Below are positions 13,307 through 17,102 of a DNA stretch of 26,874 nt, in pieces. The translations under genes were made by a program, and so were the position numbers. Origin of the DNA: a virus. Taxonomy: Duplodnaviria; Heunggongvirae; Uroviricota; Caudoviricetes. The stretch lies in IMG/VR virus record IMGVR_UViG_3300046453_000093, positions 1 through 26,874 of that record; one strand, given 5' to 3'. Below the pieces are notes generated by a model. It had not been told where the DNA came from, did not search any database, and saw only the letters and a list, made by a program, of their open reading frames with translations. Numbering within the stretch: position 1 is the first letter of the stretch; each line of letters opens with the position of its first letter.

Positions 13307-14551
13307 ATGAATGATTCAAAACTCTATGCGCCTGATACAAATATATTACTAGGTGATATTGGAAATTTAAGCCAATATAGACTAGTACTATTATCGCATA
13401 CTTTAAGGGAACTAGATAAGCACAAATCATCAAGTGATGAAGATTTGGCTTATAGGGCAAGAAAAGCTGTACGCTTTATTAAAAGGAATAGAAAAAATTT
13501 CTCATTTGACCTAAAGAATTATGATGGTTCTGAATTGGGTAGAGATTTTTCTTCATCGTATCAAGATGATAACATATTGAAGGCTTGTGTGGATAACCAA
13601 TATGGCATTATCACAAAAGATGTTCTTTTACAATTGAAAGCAGAAGGATTTGGTATTGAAGTAGTAGATTTAGAAGATGTAAGAATTGAGTCTGCACAAG
13701 AATATACAGGTATCCATAAGGTCTATCTATCAGAGTCAGAATCAGACCAAGAAGAACTTGCAAAAATTTATCAGAATCCCTCTAGTAATAATTATGGTTT
13801 ACTAACAAATCAATACTTAATAGTTTACAACAAGGATAAACCAATAAAAAATAAAGATGGGTCAATTACATATGAAGTTATTGATAAATTTAGATTTAAT
13901 GGCAAGATTTTAGTCAAGCTTAAAATACCTGATAAGAAGATTGTGAAGGCAAAGAATGAGGAACAGGAATGTGCTTTAGACATGTTGTATAATAAAGAGA
14001 TTCCTATCAAAATAATTGCGGGTACATATGGTAGCGGAAAGACATATTTAGCTGTTAAAATGGCAATTTATCACGTTCTTGAAAAGGGTAATCATGGTAA
14101 AATTATGGTTCTTAGGAATCCAATTGGTAGTGGTGAAGCAATTGGATGGCTTAAAGGCGATAAGGAAGATAAGACCAAAGACTTCTTTAAACCATTTGTT
14201 CAGCATCTTGAAGGTGGAGAACAAGAAGCAGAATTACTTGAAACAAGGGGTCAGCTAGTCAAAGAAATACCTTATTATATCAAAGGTCTTTCAATTGAGG
14301 ATACTTTTGTAGTGGTTGATGAAGCTGAGGACTTAACTTCTAAATTATTAAAATTGATTGGTACTAGGTTAGCAGAGAACTCAGAGATTGTCTTTGCGGG
14401 CGATTTCAAACAAGCAGAAGATAAATATATGGCAAGTAATGGTTTGCTACACGCTATTGATTCGTTAAAAGGGAATCCTCTTGTTGGGATTGTAATTTTA
14501 GAGGAAGATGTACGGTCTGAAGCAAGTAAAGTATTTGCCGAAATGATATAA
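13307..14551 (+). CDS. phoH: PIN-PhoH protein (PhoH2/YlaK-like RNase-helicase)
   Basis: N-terminal PIN (PDTNILL...LRELDKHK...DDNIL...TKD); Walker A GTYGSGKT; VDEAED; GDFKQ; RSEAS. Confidence 0.9.
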   Translation: MNDSKLYAPDTNILLGDIGNLSQYRLVLLSHTLRELDKHKSSSDEDLAYRARKAVRFIKRNRKNFSFDLKNYDGSELGRDFSSSYQDDNILKACVDNQYGIITKDVLLQLKAEGFGIEVVDLEDVRIESAQEYTGIHKVYLSESESDQEELAKIYQNPSSNNYGLLTNQYLIVYNKDKPIKNKDGSITYEVIDKFRFNGKILVKLKIPDKKIVKAKNEEQECALDMLYNKEIPIKIIAGTYGSGKTYLAVKMAIYHVLEKGNHGKIMVLRNPIGSGEAIGWLKGDKEDKTKDFFKPFVQHLEGGEQEAELLETRGQLVKEIPYYIKGLSIEDTFVVVDEAEDLTSKLLKLIGTRLAENSEIVFAGDFKQAEDKYMASNGLLHAIDSLKGNPLVGIVILEEDVRSEASKVFAEMI

Positions 14552-14590
14552 TGAATAATTTGATAATTAAAACATCATTTAGTCGGATAG

Positions 14591-14619
14591 TTGACAAGTG
14601 ATAAATAAAATGCTATAAT
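14591..14619 (+). promoter_or_regulatory. consensus sigma-A promoter containing the 19-bp box
   Basis: TTGACA-N17-TATAAT with extended TG; box ACAAGTGATAAATAAAATG at 14594-14612. Confidence 0.9.
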
Positions 14620-14696
14620 GTTTATAGATAGAGAATATCTACTAAACAACTTAACTCTCTTTTTACCAAGTTATGAGACTAAAATATAAACTTGTG

Positions 14697-14793
14697 TTCT
14701 AAATTAAGTGTGCAACTGGCGAGAGCCATACAAAGAAGGGTCACTCTCCAAGAAAGTGTGATTACTAGAACTCGTTGCACACTTAATTTAGAA
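14697..14793 (+). ncRNA. structured RNA element closed by a perfect 20-bp stem
   Basis: TTCTAAATTAAGTGTGCAAC (14697-14716) / GTTGCACACTTAATTTAGAA (14774-14793); interior has a TGGC-GAGA-GCCA GNRA hairpin. Confidence 0.6.
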
Positions 14794-14796
14794 AAC

Positions 14797-14972
14797 TATT
14801 TGTTAAATTGAGTGTTTGAGTGTGTGAATAGGCTATATGCCGAAATTCTTGGTGTTTCGCTACCATTAAATGCGAGCCTTAAAAGGTTTAGTTCTATGAC
14901 AATTGAATATTAAAAAGTTGAACGTTGTACTGTTGTGCAATGTATTAATTCACACACTCAATTTAGCAAATA
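14797..14972 (+). ncRNA. second structured RNA element closed by a ~25-bp stem
   Basis: TATTTGTTAAATTGAGTGT[TTGAGTGT]GTGAAT pairs with ATTCACACACTCAATTTAGCAAATA (14948-14972); internal hairpins. Confidence 0.55.
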
Positions 14973-15017
14973 CAAATCATAAATATAATTAAATGGGAAT
15001 AAGGGAGATTGATAAAA

Positions 15018-15650
15018 ATGACAGTTGAAGTAATGTCAATTCAAAGAGGACTTTCGGAATTAAAACTACTTGACAAACGTATTAATAATGCAATGTCAGG
15101 GGCTAAGTTAATTAGTGTTAGAGTGGGCGAAAAACCTGTCATTGGTTACAAGGATGATGAAGATTTTTCCGTTCAAGCAAACGCTAAAATTGATTCGATT
15201 ACTGACCTTATCAAACGTAGGGATGCAATTAAAGGTGCAATTGTCGTAGCAAATGCAACAACACCTGTAAAGGTTGGAGATGAAACAATGACTATTGCAA
15301 CTGCAATAGAGAGAAAAGATTCTATTGTTCATCTAAAAAACCTTCATAATTTATTGCGTAATCAATATGTCACAGCTTTAAATGAGTATCAACGTAAGGA
15401 TGATAGCTTTAAAGCTAATCTTGACAAACACCTTGAAACACTTTACGGAAAAGAGGGTAAAGCTAAAGGTTTGGAAAATAGGGATGCATTAAAACCATTC
15501 CTTGATATGAACGAACCACATTTAGTTGACCCACTCCAATTAAAACAGGTAATGGATAAACTTCAAGAGCAAATTGATGTTTTTGAAAGCGAGTGCGATT
15601 TATCACTCAGCGAGGTAAATGTTAAGACTGACATCACAGTTGAGTATTAG
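15018..15650 (+). CDS. coiled-coil protein, DIP1984/DUF6847-like (210 aa)
   Basis: GGGAG RBS; MSIQRGLSELKLLDKRI, VKVGDETMTIATAIERK, and LVDPL...ID.FESECD..LSEVN..T.I patterns; family assignment from memory only. Confidence 0.6.
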   Translation: MTVEVMSIQRGLSELKLLDKRINNAMSGAKLISVRVGEKPVIGYKDDEDFSVQANAKIDSITDLIKRRDAIKGAIVVANATTPVKVGDETMTIATAIERKDSIVHLKNLHNLLRNQYVTALNEYQRKDDSFKANLDKHLETLYGKEGKAKGLENRDALKPFLDMNEPHLVDPLQLKQVMDKLQEQIDVFESECDLSLSEVNVKTDITVEY

Positions 15651-15690
15651 AATCTAAAAGGGTGGGACAACCACCCTATATATCAAATAA

Positions 15691-16067
15691 TTATTACCAA
15701 TTTGTCGAAAACCACGAACTTCAATACGCCTTTATACAAGCGATATTGTATTTATATTTTTGATACTCAGTATCAAGACTAAAGAATTTAGGATGATACC
15801 TAAAATATAACTCATTAAGAGTTGCTATATTACAGGGTATGTCATATAGACGTACATTACATATGCGGAGAAATTCCAATCCTAAAAGTTCAAAGTTGAG
15901 AAATCAAGTATCAGAGTTCAAGATTCAAAACTCTTTTACCGCAATGGGCGGTTCAAAGTTTAGGTCTTAAAGGTGAAAGTTATTCAAAAAACTTGGATTT
16001 AAAGGTTATACCTAGTGCTTATTGATAGACTAAGTGGTTATCCTCCAAGCTGACAAGTTGGTAATAG
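15691..16067 (+). ncRNA. large (~377 nt) structured non-coding RNA of unknown class
   Basis: 15-bp closing stem TATTACCAATTTGTC (15692-15706) / GACAAGTTGGTAATA (16052-16066); several internal hairpins; heptamer array; no ORF of 60 aa or more. Confidence 0.7.
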
Positions 16068-16121
16068 TTACAAAACTGCCACAGACAATTGGGAGAGTTA
16101 TATCTGTGGTAGTTTTGTAAC
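16067..16121 (+). other. 19-bp hairpin (possible RNase III processing site)
   Basis: GTTACAAAACTGCCACAGA / TCTGTGGTAGTTTTGTAAC with one G-U; no U-tract. Confidence 0.6.
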
Positions 16122-16158
16122 TTAATAGTTATAAATAAGGGATGAAGGGGATTGAAAA

Positions 16159-16341
16159 ATGAGAAATAAAAAGTATTATGCTATCTTGCAAGAAAAGTTT
16201 AAAAATGCTCAAGGCGAAACAATCATTAAGGAATACGTTCACGATGTTGAAGGCTTTGCCCCTATGATTGCTAGAAGTGAAGCAGAAGCATATGCAAAAG
16301 AAAGTGGAATGACAGTTTCATTATTCTGTGCATACAAATAA
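16159..16341 (+). CDS. small hypothetical protein (60 aa)
   Basis: AAGGGGA RBS before ATG. Confidence 0.7.
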   Translation: MRNKKYYAILQEKFKNAQGETIIKEYVHDVEGFAPMIARSEAEAYAKESGMTVSLFCAYK

Positions 16342-16606
16342 AGTGATTATTTCGCAATTAGCGAATTAAATTAGTTCTTCGCTGTGGAGGAATTGAAAAA
16401 AAGCACAGAATATTGATGGTCTTTACGACCAAGCCTTAATAGGCATAAGTTTTTCACCCAAAGGTCTTGTTAGAGCGAAGGCACTTGTCCTTGCAAGATG
16501 AAAACTAGTTTTAGGTTGTGGTAGTAATTAATCATGTTGACAAGTGGACATGATTTTCCTAAAACATTGGCACATAAGTAGTGTGGGTTATATGTGCTGT
16601 TTACAC

Positions 16607-16680
16607 GACTCCTTAGCTCAGTTGGTTAGAGCGTCAGCCTGTTAAGCTGAATGTCGTAAGTTCAAGTCTTACAGGAGTCT
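16607..16680 (+). tRNA. tRNA-Asn (GTT), no encoded CCA
   Basis: acceptor GACTCCT/AGGAGTC; D-arm GCTC/GAGC; anticodon arm TCAGC-CTGTTAA-GCTGA; T-arm GTAAG-TTCAAGT-CTTAC. Confidence 0.92.
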
Positions 16681-16787
16681 TAGTTCATTCAAATCCTCCT
16701 CGTCAGTTGATAAAATGAACTTGGTTTGCTGTTGTACCACAAACAACGGTGTTACAAGTTACAATTGTGGGGTAATTCCCACACCAA

Positions 16788-16859
16788 TGGGGTGTAATTC
16801 AGTGGTAGAAGGCAACATTTGGGATGTTGAGGTCGCAGGTTCGAATCCTGTCACTCCAA
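16788..16859 (+). tRNA. tRNA-Pro (TGG), no encoded CCA
   Basis: acceptor TGGGGTG/CACTCCA; anticodon arm CAACA-TTTGGGA-TGTTG; T-arm GCAGG-TTCGAAT-CCTGT. Confidence 0.9.
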
Positions 16860-16889
16860 TAAACAACAATAGGAAAGAAGGTAGAACGA

Positions 16890-17102
16890 ATGTACGGAAT
16901 CAGAAAAGTAAAAACGTTTCATGGTGTCAAATATGCTGTAGTAAATTTAAAGACAAAAAATGTTTTAGGTAAAGATGGGAAAACAACAAAGTTTTTCTCA
17001 AAAGAAATTGACGTGGTTGAGACTAAAGATAAAGTTTTAGTATTCGATTTCACCTTAGAAGGTTTACAACAGGCTAGAGAATGGAAAGCCCAATTAAAAT
17101 AA
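16890..17102 (+). CDS. small hypothetical protein (70 aa)
   Basis: GAAGG RBS; beta-rich basic sequence. Confidence 0.7.
   Translation: MYGIRKVKTFHGVKYAVVNLKTKNVLGKDGKTTKFFSKEIDVVETKDKVLVFDFTLEGLQQAREWKAQLK

What the first reader, a model, noticed from the sequence alone, without database searches (positions are those of the whole stretch)
15018..16067. Candidate protein + large ncRNA system: DIP1984-like coiled-coil gene followed by a 377-nt closed RNA
Seen: a 210-aa helical protein, a short hairpin (15659-15677), then 377 ORF-free nt whose ends pair over 15-16 bp and enclose at least five hairpins (15760-15776, 15787-15804, 15809-15823, 15838-15856, 15938-15952) and a heptamer array, followed at once by another 19-bp stem. 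It lacks tmRNA, RNase P and group I/II hallmarks. Recollection, unverified: similar proteins in Bacillota are followed by a similar repeat-bearing non-coding stretch. Inference: an uncharacterised ribonucleoprotein, with an oligomeric protein and its cognate RNA co-transcribed from the strongest box-controlled promoter. Best candidate here for an undescribed system.
Basis: partly seen in the sequence, partly recalled or inferred. Interest (0 to 1): 0.88.

Follow-up and report, generated by a model that had tools for sequence, protein, structure and literature searches.

The report
Phage heptad-repeat RNA with partner protein
The gene-free stretch after this 210-residue phage gene encodes a real, knotted non-coding RNA of about 375 bases that follows the same uncharacterised protein in hundreds of phages, including the model phage T5, so the two look like an undescribed RNA-protein pair whose job is still unknown.

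Summary
Window 15692-16066 (+) is a conserved, structured non-coding RNA gene. It has a 16-bp closing stem, two nested long-range helices, a helix that crosses them to form a pseudoknot, several hairpins, and about 12 single-stranded 7-nt units with consensus AAAGUUC.

On 11 relatives, 47 base pairs are 94% kept and 27 show compensatory changes; column shuffles give 82% and about 13. Variation has no 3-base period, and G-U pairs mark the + strand.

The RNA always follows the 210-aa gene (PHROG 1491, T5.085 family, mislabelled "tail fiber"). It does so in all 24 phage loci inspected: SPbeta-like and Bastille-like phages, Brevibacillus, Lactococcus and C. difficile phages, T5/BF23, Vequintavirinae, Vibrio, Pseudomonas and an Erwinia jumbo phage. 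All 80 prophage-type loci in bacterial genomes show the 7-nt repeat signal in the same place. An iterated nhmmer profile hits 101 of 104 downstream regions and nothing in 1.32 Mb of control DNA.

No Rfam 15 family matches, RAGATH-27 included. No paper was found, and T5's reference annotation leaves the site blank.

The protein has a DIP1984-like helical fold (Z 11.3 to 3kdq). RNA-protein binding, expression and function are not shown.

This scan found the same RNA family earlier on other DNA (T5-like phages and others).

The parts
14591..14619 (+). Consensus promoter (TTGACA, 17-nt spacer, TATAAT, with TG) that probably drives the leader, the 210-aa gene and the RNA
   Evidence: 12 of 12 hexamer matches plus an extended -10. 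It is the only perfect site in 14500-16900. Function is inferred.
15018..15650 (+). 210-aa helical protein of the PHROG 1491 / T5.085 family, with a DIP1984-like fold
   Evidence: phrog_1491 E 1.2e-63. 738 phage records by tblastn. AF2 model pLDDT 91.8. Structural match to 3kdq with Z 11.3, 150 of 152 residues aligned.
15659..15677 (+). GC-rich hairpin between the gene and the RNA, possibly an attenuator or processing site
   Evidence: Sequence. Conserved in the closest relatives (alignment). There is no U-run on the + strand.
15692..15707 (+). P1, 5' strand of the closing stem. It ends in CG and is followed by the conserved AAA(A) junction
   Evidence: 16 pairs, 94% kept, 8 with compensatory change. 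An unguided long-range-stem search finds the same stem and junction in 23 of 24 phage loci.
15711..15715 (+). P2, 5' strand (ACCAC). It pairs with 16034-16038
   Evidence: 100% paired on 11 sequences, 3 pairs with compensatory change. The equivalent helix has a different sequence in Ro1, TH18, Jenst, JBP901 and Psa374.
15721..15726 (+). P3, 5' strand (UCAAUA). It pairs with 16020-16025
   Evidence: 95% paired; U-A changes to C-G in 4 relatives. The equivalent helix is present in distant phages.
15733..15752 (+). P4 hairpin with a conserved (G)CGAUA loop
   Evidence: 6 of 7 pairs show compensatory change. The same loop occurs in JBP901.
15753..15884 (+). Variable domain with four hairpins (15760-15776, 15787-15804, 15809-15823, 15838-15856)
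   Evidence: Sequence and length vary among relatives. In Erwinia phage RAY this domain holds a YrlA-type tRNA mimic.
15885..15933 (+). Heptad array A: seven phased 7-nt units of the type UUCAAAG
   Evidence: Lag-7 autocorrelation. Unit consensus AAAGUUC is shared by Gram-positive and Gram-negative members. Many alignment columns are invariant.
15938..15952 (+). Hairpin H5 (ACCGC / GCGGU) that splits the array
   Evidence: 3 pairs with compensatory change.
15953..15991 (+). Heptad array B: about five to six further units running into an A-run
   Evidence: sequence.
15992..16005 (+). Px, 5' strand: CUUGG (15992-15996) and AGG (16003-16005). They pair with 16042-16049
   Evidence: 100% paired. 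The helix has at least 8 different sequences across the family and is picked without guidance in 17 of 24 loci. It crosses P2 and P3, making a pseudoknot.
16020..16049 (+). 3' strands of P3 (16020-16025), P2 (16034-16038) and Px (16042-16049)
16051..16066 (+). P1, 3' strand, preceded by the conserved RGC junction
16066..16122 (+). 19-bp stem-loop directly after the RNA, probably a terminator or 3'-end-defining element
   Evidence: Sequence, fold. Kept in the five closest relatives. Distant members carry a canonical rho-independent terminator or a tRNA at this place.

Best explanation
Window 15692-16066 is the gene of a roughly 375-nt non-coding RNA. It is transcribed on the + strand behind the 210-aa gene, probably from the consensus promoter at 14591-14619.

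The RNA folds into a closed, pseudoknotted core (P1, P2, P3 and the crossing helix Px). That core holds out about 12 single-stranded 7-nt units (consensus AAAGUUC) and a variable, exchangeable domain.

RNA and protein form one hereditary module, found from T5-like coliphages to SPbeta-like Bacillota phages and their prophages.

Most likely mechanism (inferred, not shown): several copies of the helical DIP1984-like protein bind the repeated units, with the knotted core as scaffold. The resulting ribonucleoprotein would be made early in infection and act on RNA or tRNA metabolism. That role is suggested by the module's constant place inside or beside phage tRNA arrays and by a Y-RNA-type tRNA mimic in the variable domain of one member.

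Shown here: the structure, its conservation, the coding strand, and the linkage to the protein gene. Inferred: co-transcription, binding, stoichiometry and role.

The confidence of 0.5 is for the whole statement including the ribonucleoprotein. For 'a real conserved RNA gene coupled to this protein gene' alone it is about 0.9.
For: Structure:
- RNAalifold on 11 relatives gives 44 pairs, 22 of them with compensatory change.
- My own count with the pseudoknot included gives 47 pairs, 94.2% of cells paired, and 27 pairs with changes on both sides. 1000 column shuffles give a mean of 81.9% (maximum 84.8%) and 12.6 pairs (maximum 18). Slid partners give 34-47%.
- There are 34 G-U cells against 8 A-C cells, which fits the + strand.
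- Variation by codon phase is 33/33/31, so the stretch is not coding.
- P1, Px, P2 and P3 are recovered in distant phages with quite different sequences.

Linkage:
- Every relative fetched keeps a 360-1000 nt gene-free gap after the gene.
- 80 of 80 genome loci show the 7-nt period downstream of the gene and not upstream.
- Iterated nhmmer hits 101 of 104 downstream regions. Gram-negative members score 4e-8 to 2e-6 before they are included in the profile.
- The same profiles give 0 hits in 1.32 Mb of control DNA.

3' end: terminators or tRNAs follow P1 directly.

Protein: confident helical model with a DIP1984-like fold.

Y-RNA-type module in RAY: RF02553 positions 23-87, 44.5 bits, E 9.5e-9.
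Against: - There is no expression data and no binding data.
- The protein is mildly acidic overall (pI 5.5) and has no recognised RNA-binding domain.
- Linkage alone would also fit an RNA that regulates or is regulated by the gene, or two parts that act separately on one target.
- The many loci are related to each other, so the counts overstate the number of independent events.
- nhmmer E-values refer to a small database, and the periodic A-rich array could inflate them.
- Earlier follow-ups of the same family in this scan were later marked 'part of it fell'. The reason is not given.
Confidence: 0.5

Rival explanations
1. The RNA works without the neighbouring protein, as a decoy or sponge. 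Its phased single-stranded units would soak up a conserved host factor, such as a ring-shaped or multi-site RNA binder, Rho, cold-shock proteins, or a nuclease that cuts 7-nt anticodon loops. The protein would be a separate player in the same pathway.
For: - About 12 phased units with conserved sequence lie in a region with no supported pairing.
- The unit reads as pyrimidine-U-N-A-A-purine-purine. That fits the general pattern of a 7-nt anticodon loop (own knowledge).
- The module sits in tRNA arrays.
- The protein is acidic and has no RNA-binding domain.
Against: - The strict co-inheritance of RNA and protein gene, in the same order, in every locus examined (104 loci) is more than a shared pathway usually gives.
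- No host factor is known to read this 7-nt unit.
- The hosts range from Lactococcus to Pseudomonas, so the target would have to be nearly universal.
Confidence: 0.2
2. The element is a cis-acting part of the transcript, not a free RNA. It could be a structured 3' UTR, insulator or processing platform that stabilises the upstream mRNA or sets the 5' end of the downstream tRNA or gene transcript.
For: - It lies between a coding gene and tRNAs or further genes on the same strand.
- In Vequintavirinae and some relatives a tRNA begins 2-9 nt after P1, so RNase P would cut there.
- In the window, a hairpin without a U-run separates the gene from the RNA.
Against: - The downstream gene differs from phage to phage: a 60-aa ORF, a tRNA, gyrase, a phosphoesterase, T5.084.
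- Many members end in their own strong terminator.
- A pseudoknotted core of 250-440 nt with invariant junction bases is far more elaborate than known stabilisers.
Confidence: 0.12
3. A type III toxin-antitoxin-like pair: the protein is toxic and the repeat-bearing RNA neutralises it.
For: A protein gene is tightly coupled to an RNA with short repeats, with a hairpin between them that could set their ratio.
Against: - Known type III systems have the repeats upstream of the toxin, repeats of about 34-36 nt, and a ToxN/Kid-like beta-rich endoribonuclease (own knowledge).
- Here the order is reversed, the period is 7 nt, the repeats sit inside a knotted scaffold, and the protein is an all-helical DIP1984-like fold.
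- The PADLOC library was not searched.
Confidence: 0.04
4. The stretch acts as DNA: an origin or partition-type site whose 7-bp iterons are bound by the upstream protein.
For: A gene followed by phased short repeats resembles initiator-iteron and ParB-centromere layouts.
Against: - Compensatory changes occur in helices whose strands lie 300-370 nt apart, and in a pseudoknot.
- The G-U against A-C asymmetry shows selection on one transcribed strand.
- Terminators and tRNAs follow on the same strand.
- None of this is expected of a double-stranded DNA site.
Confidence: 0.03
5. The RNA is a catalytic RNA, either self-processing or acting on tRNA or other RNA, and the protein is its cofactor.
For: - The size, closed architecture, pseudoknot and invariant junction bases (CG-AAA on the 5' side, RGC on the 3' side) are of the kind seen in large ribozymes.
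- The setting is a tRNA array.
Against: No match to any ribozyme family in Rfam 15. No candidate cleavage site or substrate was identified. The long single-stranded repeat array is unlike known ribozyme cores.
Confidence: 0.06

Closest known systems
Y RNAs / YrlA with the Ro60 (Rsr) protein (Rfam RF02553 and relatives)
   Same: - A non-coding RNA closed by pairing of its 5' and 3' ends.
- It is encoded next to the gene of a protein partner.
- It has a modular distal domain.
- It occurs in phages as well as bacteria.
- One member of the present family (Erwinia phage RAY) carries a YrlA-type tRNA mimic in its variable domain: T arm, capped acceptor stem and D arm.
   Different: - The partner is a 210-aa helical DIP1984-like protein, not a TROVE-domain ring.
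- The window RNA has no YrlA or Y RNA match.
- Y RNAs have neither the pseudoknot nor the heptad array.
- Binding is shown for Ro-Y RNA and is not shown here.
ROOL and GOLLD RNAs (Rfam RF03087, RF01998)
   Same: Large, ornate, non-coding RNAs of unknown function, found in phages and prophages of Bacillota and often beside tRNA genes (PMC5737381, PMC12286853).
   Different: - No sequence or structure match.
- ROOL and GOLLD are larger (about 580 and 800 nt), are reported to form RNA-only multimers, and have no fixed protein-gene partner.
- The present RNA is 250-440 nt, always follows one protein gene, and also occurs in phages of Gram-negative hosts.
Multi-site protein-binding RNAs: CsrB/RsmZ with CsrA, and the trp leader with TRAP
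   Same: An array of short, phased, single-stranded sequence units that could each bind one subunit or one copy of a protein.
   Different: - The unit here is 7 nt (AAAGUUC), not GGA or (G/U)AG triplets.
- The array is embedded in a pseudoknotted closed scaffold.
- The candidate binder has an unrelated fold.
- No binding has been shown.
RAGATH-27 motif (Rfam RF03100, 86 nt, function unknown)
   Same: Earlier follow-ups in this scan (e1-5390134, e1-4039112) reported that the first 86 nt of a relative of this RNA match this orphan motif.
   Different: - Not reproduced here. There is no RF03100 hit on the window RNA at E up to 10.
- There is none on 29 related loci.
- There is none over cut-off in 5 genomes that carry the module.
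- There is none in 151 Clostridia genomes.
DIP1984 / 'septicolysin' protein family (PDB 3kdq; NCBIfam NF038048)
   Same: The protein model superposes on 3kdq over 150 of 152 residues. VIA Z is 11.3 against 7.3 for the next hit, and Foldseek probability is 1.0.
   Different: - The sequence score is 13.3 bits against a cut-off of 70.
- The phage protein is about 60 residues longer.
- The function of DIP1984 proteins is itself unknown.

Membership tests
PHROG 1491 (T5.085-type phage protein, annotated 'tail fiber protein') | Significant full-length match to the family profile | tested here: met
   E 1.2e-63, residues 5-209 on profile positions 4-210 of 211. T5.085 lies at the syntenic place in NC_005859.
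DIP1984 family (NCBIfam NF038048) | Score at or above the curated cut-off (70 bits) | tested here: not met
   13.3 bits, E 0.069.
DIP1984 family (NCBIfam NF038048) | Same fold as the solved member 3kdq | tested here: inconclusive
   VIA Z 11.3 with 150 of 152 residues aligned and rmsd 8.2, well above the next hit at 7.3. For helical proteins, Z under about 13 may be a common arrangement. Foldseek gives E 9e-3 and probability 1.0.
RAGATH-27 (RF03100) | Covariance-model match at or above 76.1 bits | tested here: not met
   No hit even at E up to 10 on 396 nt. None on related loci.
Y RNA / YrlA (RF02553) | Covariance-model match including the Ro-binding stem | tested here: not met
   No hit in the window. 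In phage RAY only model positions 23-87, the tRNA-like part, match, at 44.5 bits against a cut-off of 69.
Y RNA / YrlA (RF02553) | Adjacent gene for a Ro60/TROVE protein | tested here: not met
   The gene directly upstream of the RNA is the helical 210-aa protein, which has no TROVE match in Pfam. No TROVE family is listed among the called neighbour genes of the relatives. The rest of the window was not scanned for TROVE.
ROOL / GOLLD / OLE / HEARO and other large Rfam RNAs | Covariance-model match | tested here: not met
   only tRNAs reach threshold near the element.
tmRNA, RNase P RNA, group I/II introns | Covariance-model or ARAGORN match | tested here: not met
Type III toxin-antitoxin (ToxIN-like) | Tandem repeats of about 34-36 nt upstream of a ToxN-fold endoribonuclease gene | tested here: not met
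   The period is 7 nt, the RNA is downstream of the gene, and the protein is all-helical.
Type III toxin-antitoxin (ToxIN-like) | Toxicity of the protein relieved by the RNA | not testable with these tools
   Needs expression experiments.

The most novel reading that the evidence does not exclude
The T5.085-family protein and this heptad-repeat pseudoknotted RNA form a previously unknown, widespread phage ribonucleoprotein. Copies of the protein would line up on the 7-nt units. The particle would act as a Y-RNA-like adaptor or decoy in the contest over tRNAs, for example by shielding phage tRNAs from, or baiting, host anticodon-loop nucleases. This would explain its fixed place in phage tRNA arrays and the anticodon-loop-like pattern of its units.
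Probability: 0.12. Interest if true: 0.92.

Novelty: categorically new. Interest (0 to 1): 0.8.

Why it matters
If the reading holds, a large structured RNA with a dedicated protein partner has gone unannotated in hundreds of sequenced phages. These include T5 and BF23, Bastille-like Bacillus phages, Vequintavirinae used in phage therapy research, and SPbeta-like prophages of Bacillus, Lysinibacillus, Sporosarcina and Brevibacillus.

It would add a new class to the short list of large bacterial and phage non-coding RNAs. This one comes with an obvious handle for experiments: a partner protein, a model phage and a laboratory host.

It also corrects a misleading 'tail fiber protein' label that has spread through phage annotation.

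Tried and rejected
1. Covariance models: A2 was too long (412 columns).
2. DNA pattern scans of IMG/VR and of the metagenome collection gave only chance matches. nhmmer found no true member among them.
3. A single-protein scan of IMG/VR found nothing.
4. blastn of the region against the phage collection gave no match.
5. Complex prediction (two copies of the protein) could not be reached in four tries, so oligomerisation is untested.
6. Sequence search of PDB chains gave only weak HslU coiled-coil noise.
7. ESM Atlas gave only unnamed viral clusters.
8. Literature searches (T5 non-coding RNA, T5.085, septicolysin/DIP1984, ROOL/GOLLD context, candidate structured RNAs in phages, T5 transcriptomes, RAGATH-27) gave no description of this RNA or protein. 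The library lacks most subscription journals, so absence is not proof.
9. The RAGATH-27 lead from earlier notes was not reproduced.
10. Ideas considered and dropped:
   - Hammerhead core: the CUGA and GAAA are not conserved outside this lineage.
   - T-loop decoy: GUUCAAA is lineage-specific.
   - Pairing between arrays A and B: only 4 of 7 positions could pair.
   - Hidden small ORF: no codon periodicity.
Full report
**What is there.** The window is the first 26.9 kb of a 90.9-kb uncultured phage record. Its genes include a YonG-type gene, an HU-like gene, PIN-PhoH and a phosphoesterase.

The finding covers three things:
- A 210-aa ORF at 15018-15650, with an ATG start and a ribosome-binding site 10 nt upstream.
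- A 508-nt gap with no ORF above 52 aa on either strand.
- A 60-aa ORF at 16159-16341. Two tRNAs follow at 16607 and 16788.

These are the hairpin 15659-15677, the closing stem 15692-15707 with 16051-16066, five internal hairpins, the heptamer run, and the 19-bp stem 16066-16122.

The gap folds far better than shuffled sequence. The z-score is -8.8 overall, -5.6 for the closed element and -3.5 for its interior. A perfect promoter lies upstream at 14591-14619.

**It is a conserved, structured RNA.** Proteins 58-81% identical to the 210-aa product were found in metagenome assemblies, and their contigs were fetched. Each keeps a gene-free gap after the gene, and the gaps align at 71-81% identity.

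The alignment shows three zones:
- A conserved 5' block.
- A variable middle.
- A strongly conserved 3' half of about 175 nt.

RNAalifold predicts 44 pairs, 22 with compensatory change. I added a helix seen by comparison, Px: CUUGG at 15992-15996 with CCAAG at 16045-16049, plus AGG with CCU. I then counted 47 pairs:

| Measure | Observed | 1000 column shuffles | Slid partners |
|---|---|---|---|
| Cells paired | 94.2% | mean 81.9%, max 84.8% | 34-47% |
| Pairs with changes on both sides | 27 | mean 12.6, max 18 | 3-7 |

G-U cells outnumber A-C cells 34 to 8, so the + strand is the one under selection. Variation is even across codon phases (33/33/31), so the stretch is not coding.

Px encloses the 3' strands of P2 and P3, whose 5' strands lie near the 5' end. 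The core is therefore a pseudoknot.

**The RNA follows the same protein gene everywhere.** The protein belongs to PHROG 1491 (E 1e-63) and has tblastn matches in 738 phage records. I inspected 13 of them:
- Brevibacillus Jenst, Bacillus JBP901, Lysinibacillus LC76P1, Lactococcus AM8, C. difficile phiCDIF1296T.
- E. coli BF23, Pseudomonas phiPsa374, Vibrio pVp-1 and Thalassa.
- Erwinia pEp_SNUABM_01 and RAY, E. coli TH18, Raoultella Ro1.

Each has 360-640 unannotated bases after the gene.

Three unguided searches recover the same architecture in these loci:
- A search for the best long-range stem returns, in 23 of 24 loci, a P1 whose 5' strand ends in CG followed by AA(A). Its 3' strand is preceded by RGC.
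- A duplex search with the 12 nt before P1's 3' strand picks, in 17 of 24 loci, a site just after an A-run. This gives Px with at least eight different sequences, for example CCUAG/CUAGG, CCUGG/CCAGG, CCCAG/CUGGG and CCUUG/CAAGG.
- P2 and P3 equivalents are found as well.

A scan of one genome per prokaryote species found 105 relatives of the gene. The 80 kept loci lie mostly in Bacillus pumilus-group, Brevibacillus, Paenibacillus, Lysinibacillus and Sporosarcina genomes. In 80 of 80, the 350 nt after the gene carry the 7-nt periodic signal, while the 350 nt before it and the gene itself do not.

An nhmmer profile started from the window's lineage and iterated hits 101 of 104 downstream regions. 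Gram-negative members appear at E 4e-8 to 2e-6 before they are included. The same profiles give no hit in 1.32 Mb of control DNA.

Element length ranges from about 250 to 440 nt.

**The repeat array.** Whole-element autocorrelation peaks at lags 7 and 14 in every lineage. Distances between AAAG words are mostly multiples of 7.

Phase-aligned counts give the same unit, A-A-A-G-U-U-C, in three groups: the window's lineage, other Gram-positive phages and Gram-negative phages. The first A is at about 0.87 and one U at about 0.8.

In the window there are seven units (15885-15933), a covarying hairpin (15938-15952), and five to six more units that run into the A-run before Px. No supported pairing covers them, and their sequence is more conserved than that of the helices. 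This argues for sequence-specific recognition as single strand.

**Ends and transcription.** Distant members carry a canonical terminator right after P1: Jenst, JBP901, LC76P1, phiPsa374, AM8, pVp-1 and Thalassa. Others have a tRNA that starts 2-9 nt after P1: TH18, Ro1, L009 and L011.

The window has the 19-bp stem-loop instead, as do its five closest relatives. Everything points to transcription of the + strand together with, or just after, the protein gene. Transcription itself was not tested.

**The protein.** The AlphaFold model is confident (pLDDT 91.8). It shows long helical hairpins packed on a small four-stranded sheet.

The only solved relative is 3kdq, the Corynebacterium diphtheriae protein of unknown function. 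Foldseek gives probability 1.0 and E 9e-3. VIA gives Z 11.3 over 150 of 152 residues, with the next hit at 7.3. AlphaFold DB and BFVD return only unnamed phage and bacterial proteins plus a 'septicolysin'.

By sequence the DIP1984 model scores far below its cut-off. The protein is mildly acidic (pI 5.5) and has no known RNA-binding domain. The 'tail fiber protein' label comes from T5.085 and has no support. In T5 the gene lies in the early region among tRNA genes.

**Comparison with what is known.** Rfam 15 has no match to the RNA:
- In the window, at E up to 10.
- In 29 related loci.

T5's reference record annotates other stable RNAs but leaves 43142-43504 blank. Literature searches found nothing on the RNA or on T5.085, within the limits of an open-access library.

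Earlier follow-ups in this scan met the same family in T5-like and other phages. Two of them named RAGATH-27 (RF03100) as an 86-nt fragment of a relative. I could not reproduce that link for this lineage.

One new lead is in Erwinia phage RAY. There the variable domain contains a YrlA-type tRNA mimic: T arm, capped acceptor stem and D arm. It matches RF02553 positions 23-87 at 44.5 bits, E 9.5e-9. This shows the variable domain is an exchangeable module. It makes Y RNA with Ro the nearest functional analogy, although the defining Y RNA features are not met.

**Mechanism and confidence.**
- A real, conserved RNA gene coupled to this protein gene: about 0.9.
- Protein and RNA form a particle, with the heptads as multiple binding sites: my best reading, about 0.5. 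It rests on co-inheritance and architecture only.
- Rivals: a protein-independent decoy or sponge (0.2), a cis-acting transcript element (0.12), a ribozyme (0.06), a type III toxin-antitoxin-like pair (0.04), and a DNA site (0.03).

The function remains open. The tRNA-array setting and the tRNA mimic suggest RNA or tRNA metabolism, or the conflict over tRNAs, but that is conjecture.

**Limits.**
- The loci are phylogenetically related, so counts are not independent events.
- No covariance model could be built.
- nhmmer E-values refer to a small database.
- Oligomerisation could not be tested because the complex-prediction tool was unreachable.
- Earlier reports on this family were later marked as partly fallen, without the reason being available to me.

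Noticed in passing
L145 (Brevibacillus phage Jenst) 3625-3702: A skipping-rope RNA (RF02924, 67.6 bits, E 4e-14) lies exactly between the homologous protein gene and the start of the heptad RNA. In the window, only a simple hairpin (15659-15677) occupies that place.
   Followed up: partly
L155 (Erwinia phage RAY) 2253-2316: A YrlA-type tRNA mimic (T arm, acceptor stem capped by a loop, D arm) is inserted in the variable domain of RAY's 443-nt version of the RNA. That version overlaps the annotated ORF gp203.
   Followed up: partly
L145 4160-4434: A full-length BsrG (RF01412, 119 bits), the RNA of the SPbeta type I toxin-antitoxin, lies just downstream of the module in phage Jenst.
   Followed up: no
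L002 4062-4499: One close relative has an HNH_3 homing-endonuclease ORF inserted right after the RNA, before the conserved 60-aa ORF. JBP901 and Ro1 also have HNH genes within the neighbouring tRNA arrays.
   Followed up: no
window 14620-15017: The roughly 400-nt ORF-free leader between the promoter and the 210-aa gene has no Rfam hit. It occupies the position where relatives (L007, L009, L011, L012) carry tRNA arrays right up to the gene.
   Followed up: no
window 16159-16341: The 60-aa ORF after the RNA is kept (59-64 aa) in most of the close relatives fetched, but has no Pfam, NCBIfam or PHROG match and is absent from distant phages.
   Followed up: partly
L158 (phage T5, NC_005859) record 43505-44143 and 40848-41566: T5.085 is annotated 'tail fiber protein' although it lies in the early region. 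This label seems to be the source of the PHROG 1491 name. T5 also has an annotated 719-nt 'RNAX, stable RNA with unknown functions' about 1.6 kb away.
   Followed up: no
L154 2499-2502; L157 2521-2527; L009 4027-4036; L011 4016-4025: In several phages a tRNA gene begins 2-9 nt after the last base of the RNA's closing stem. RNase P cleavage of the tRNA leader would therefore create the RNA's 3' end.
   Followed up: partly
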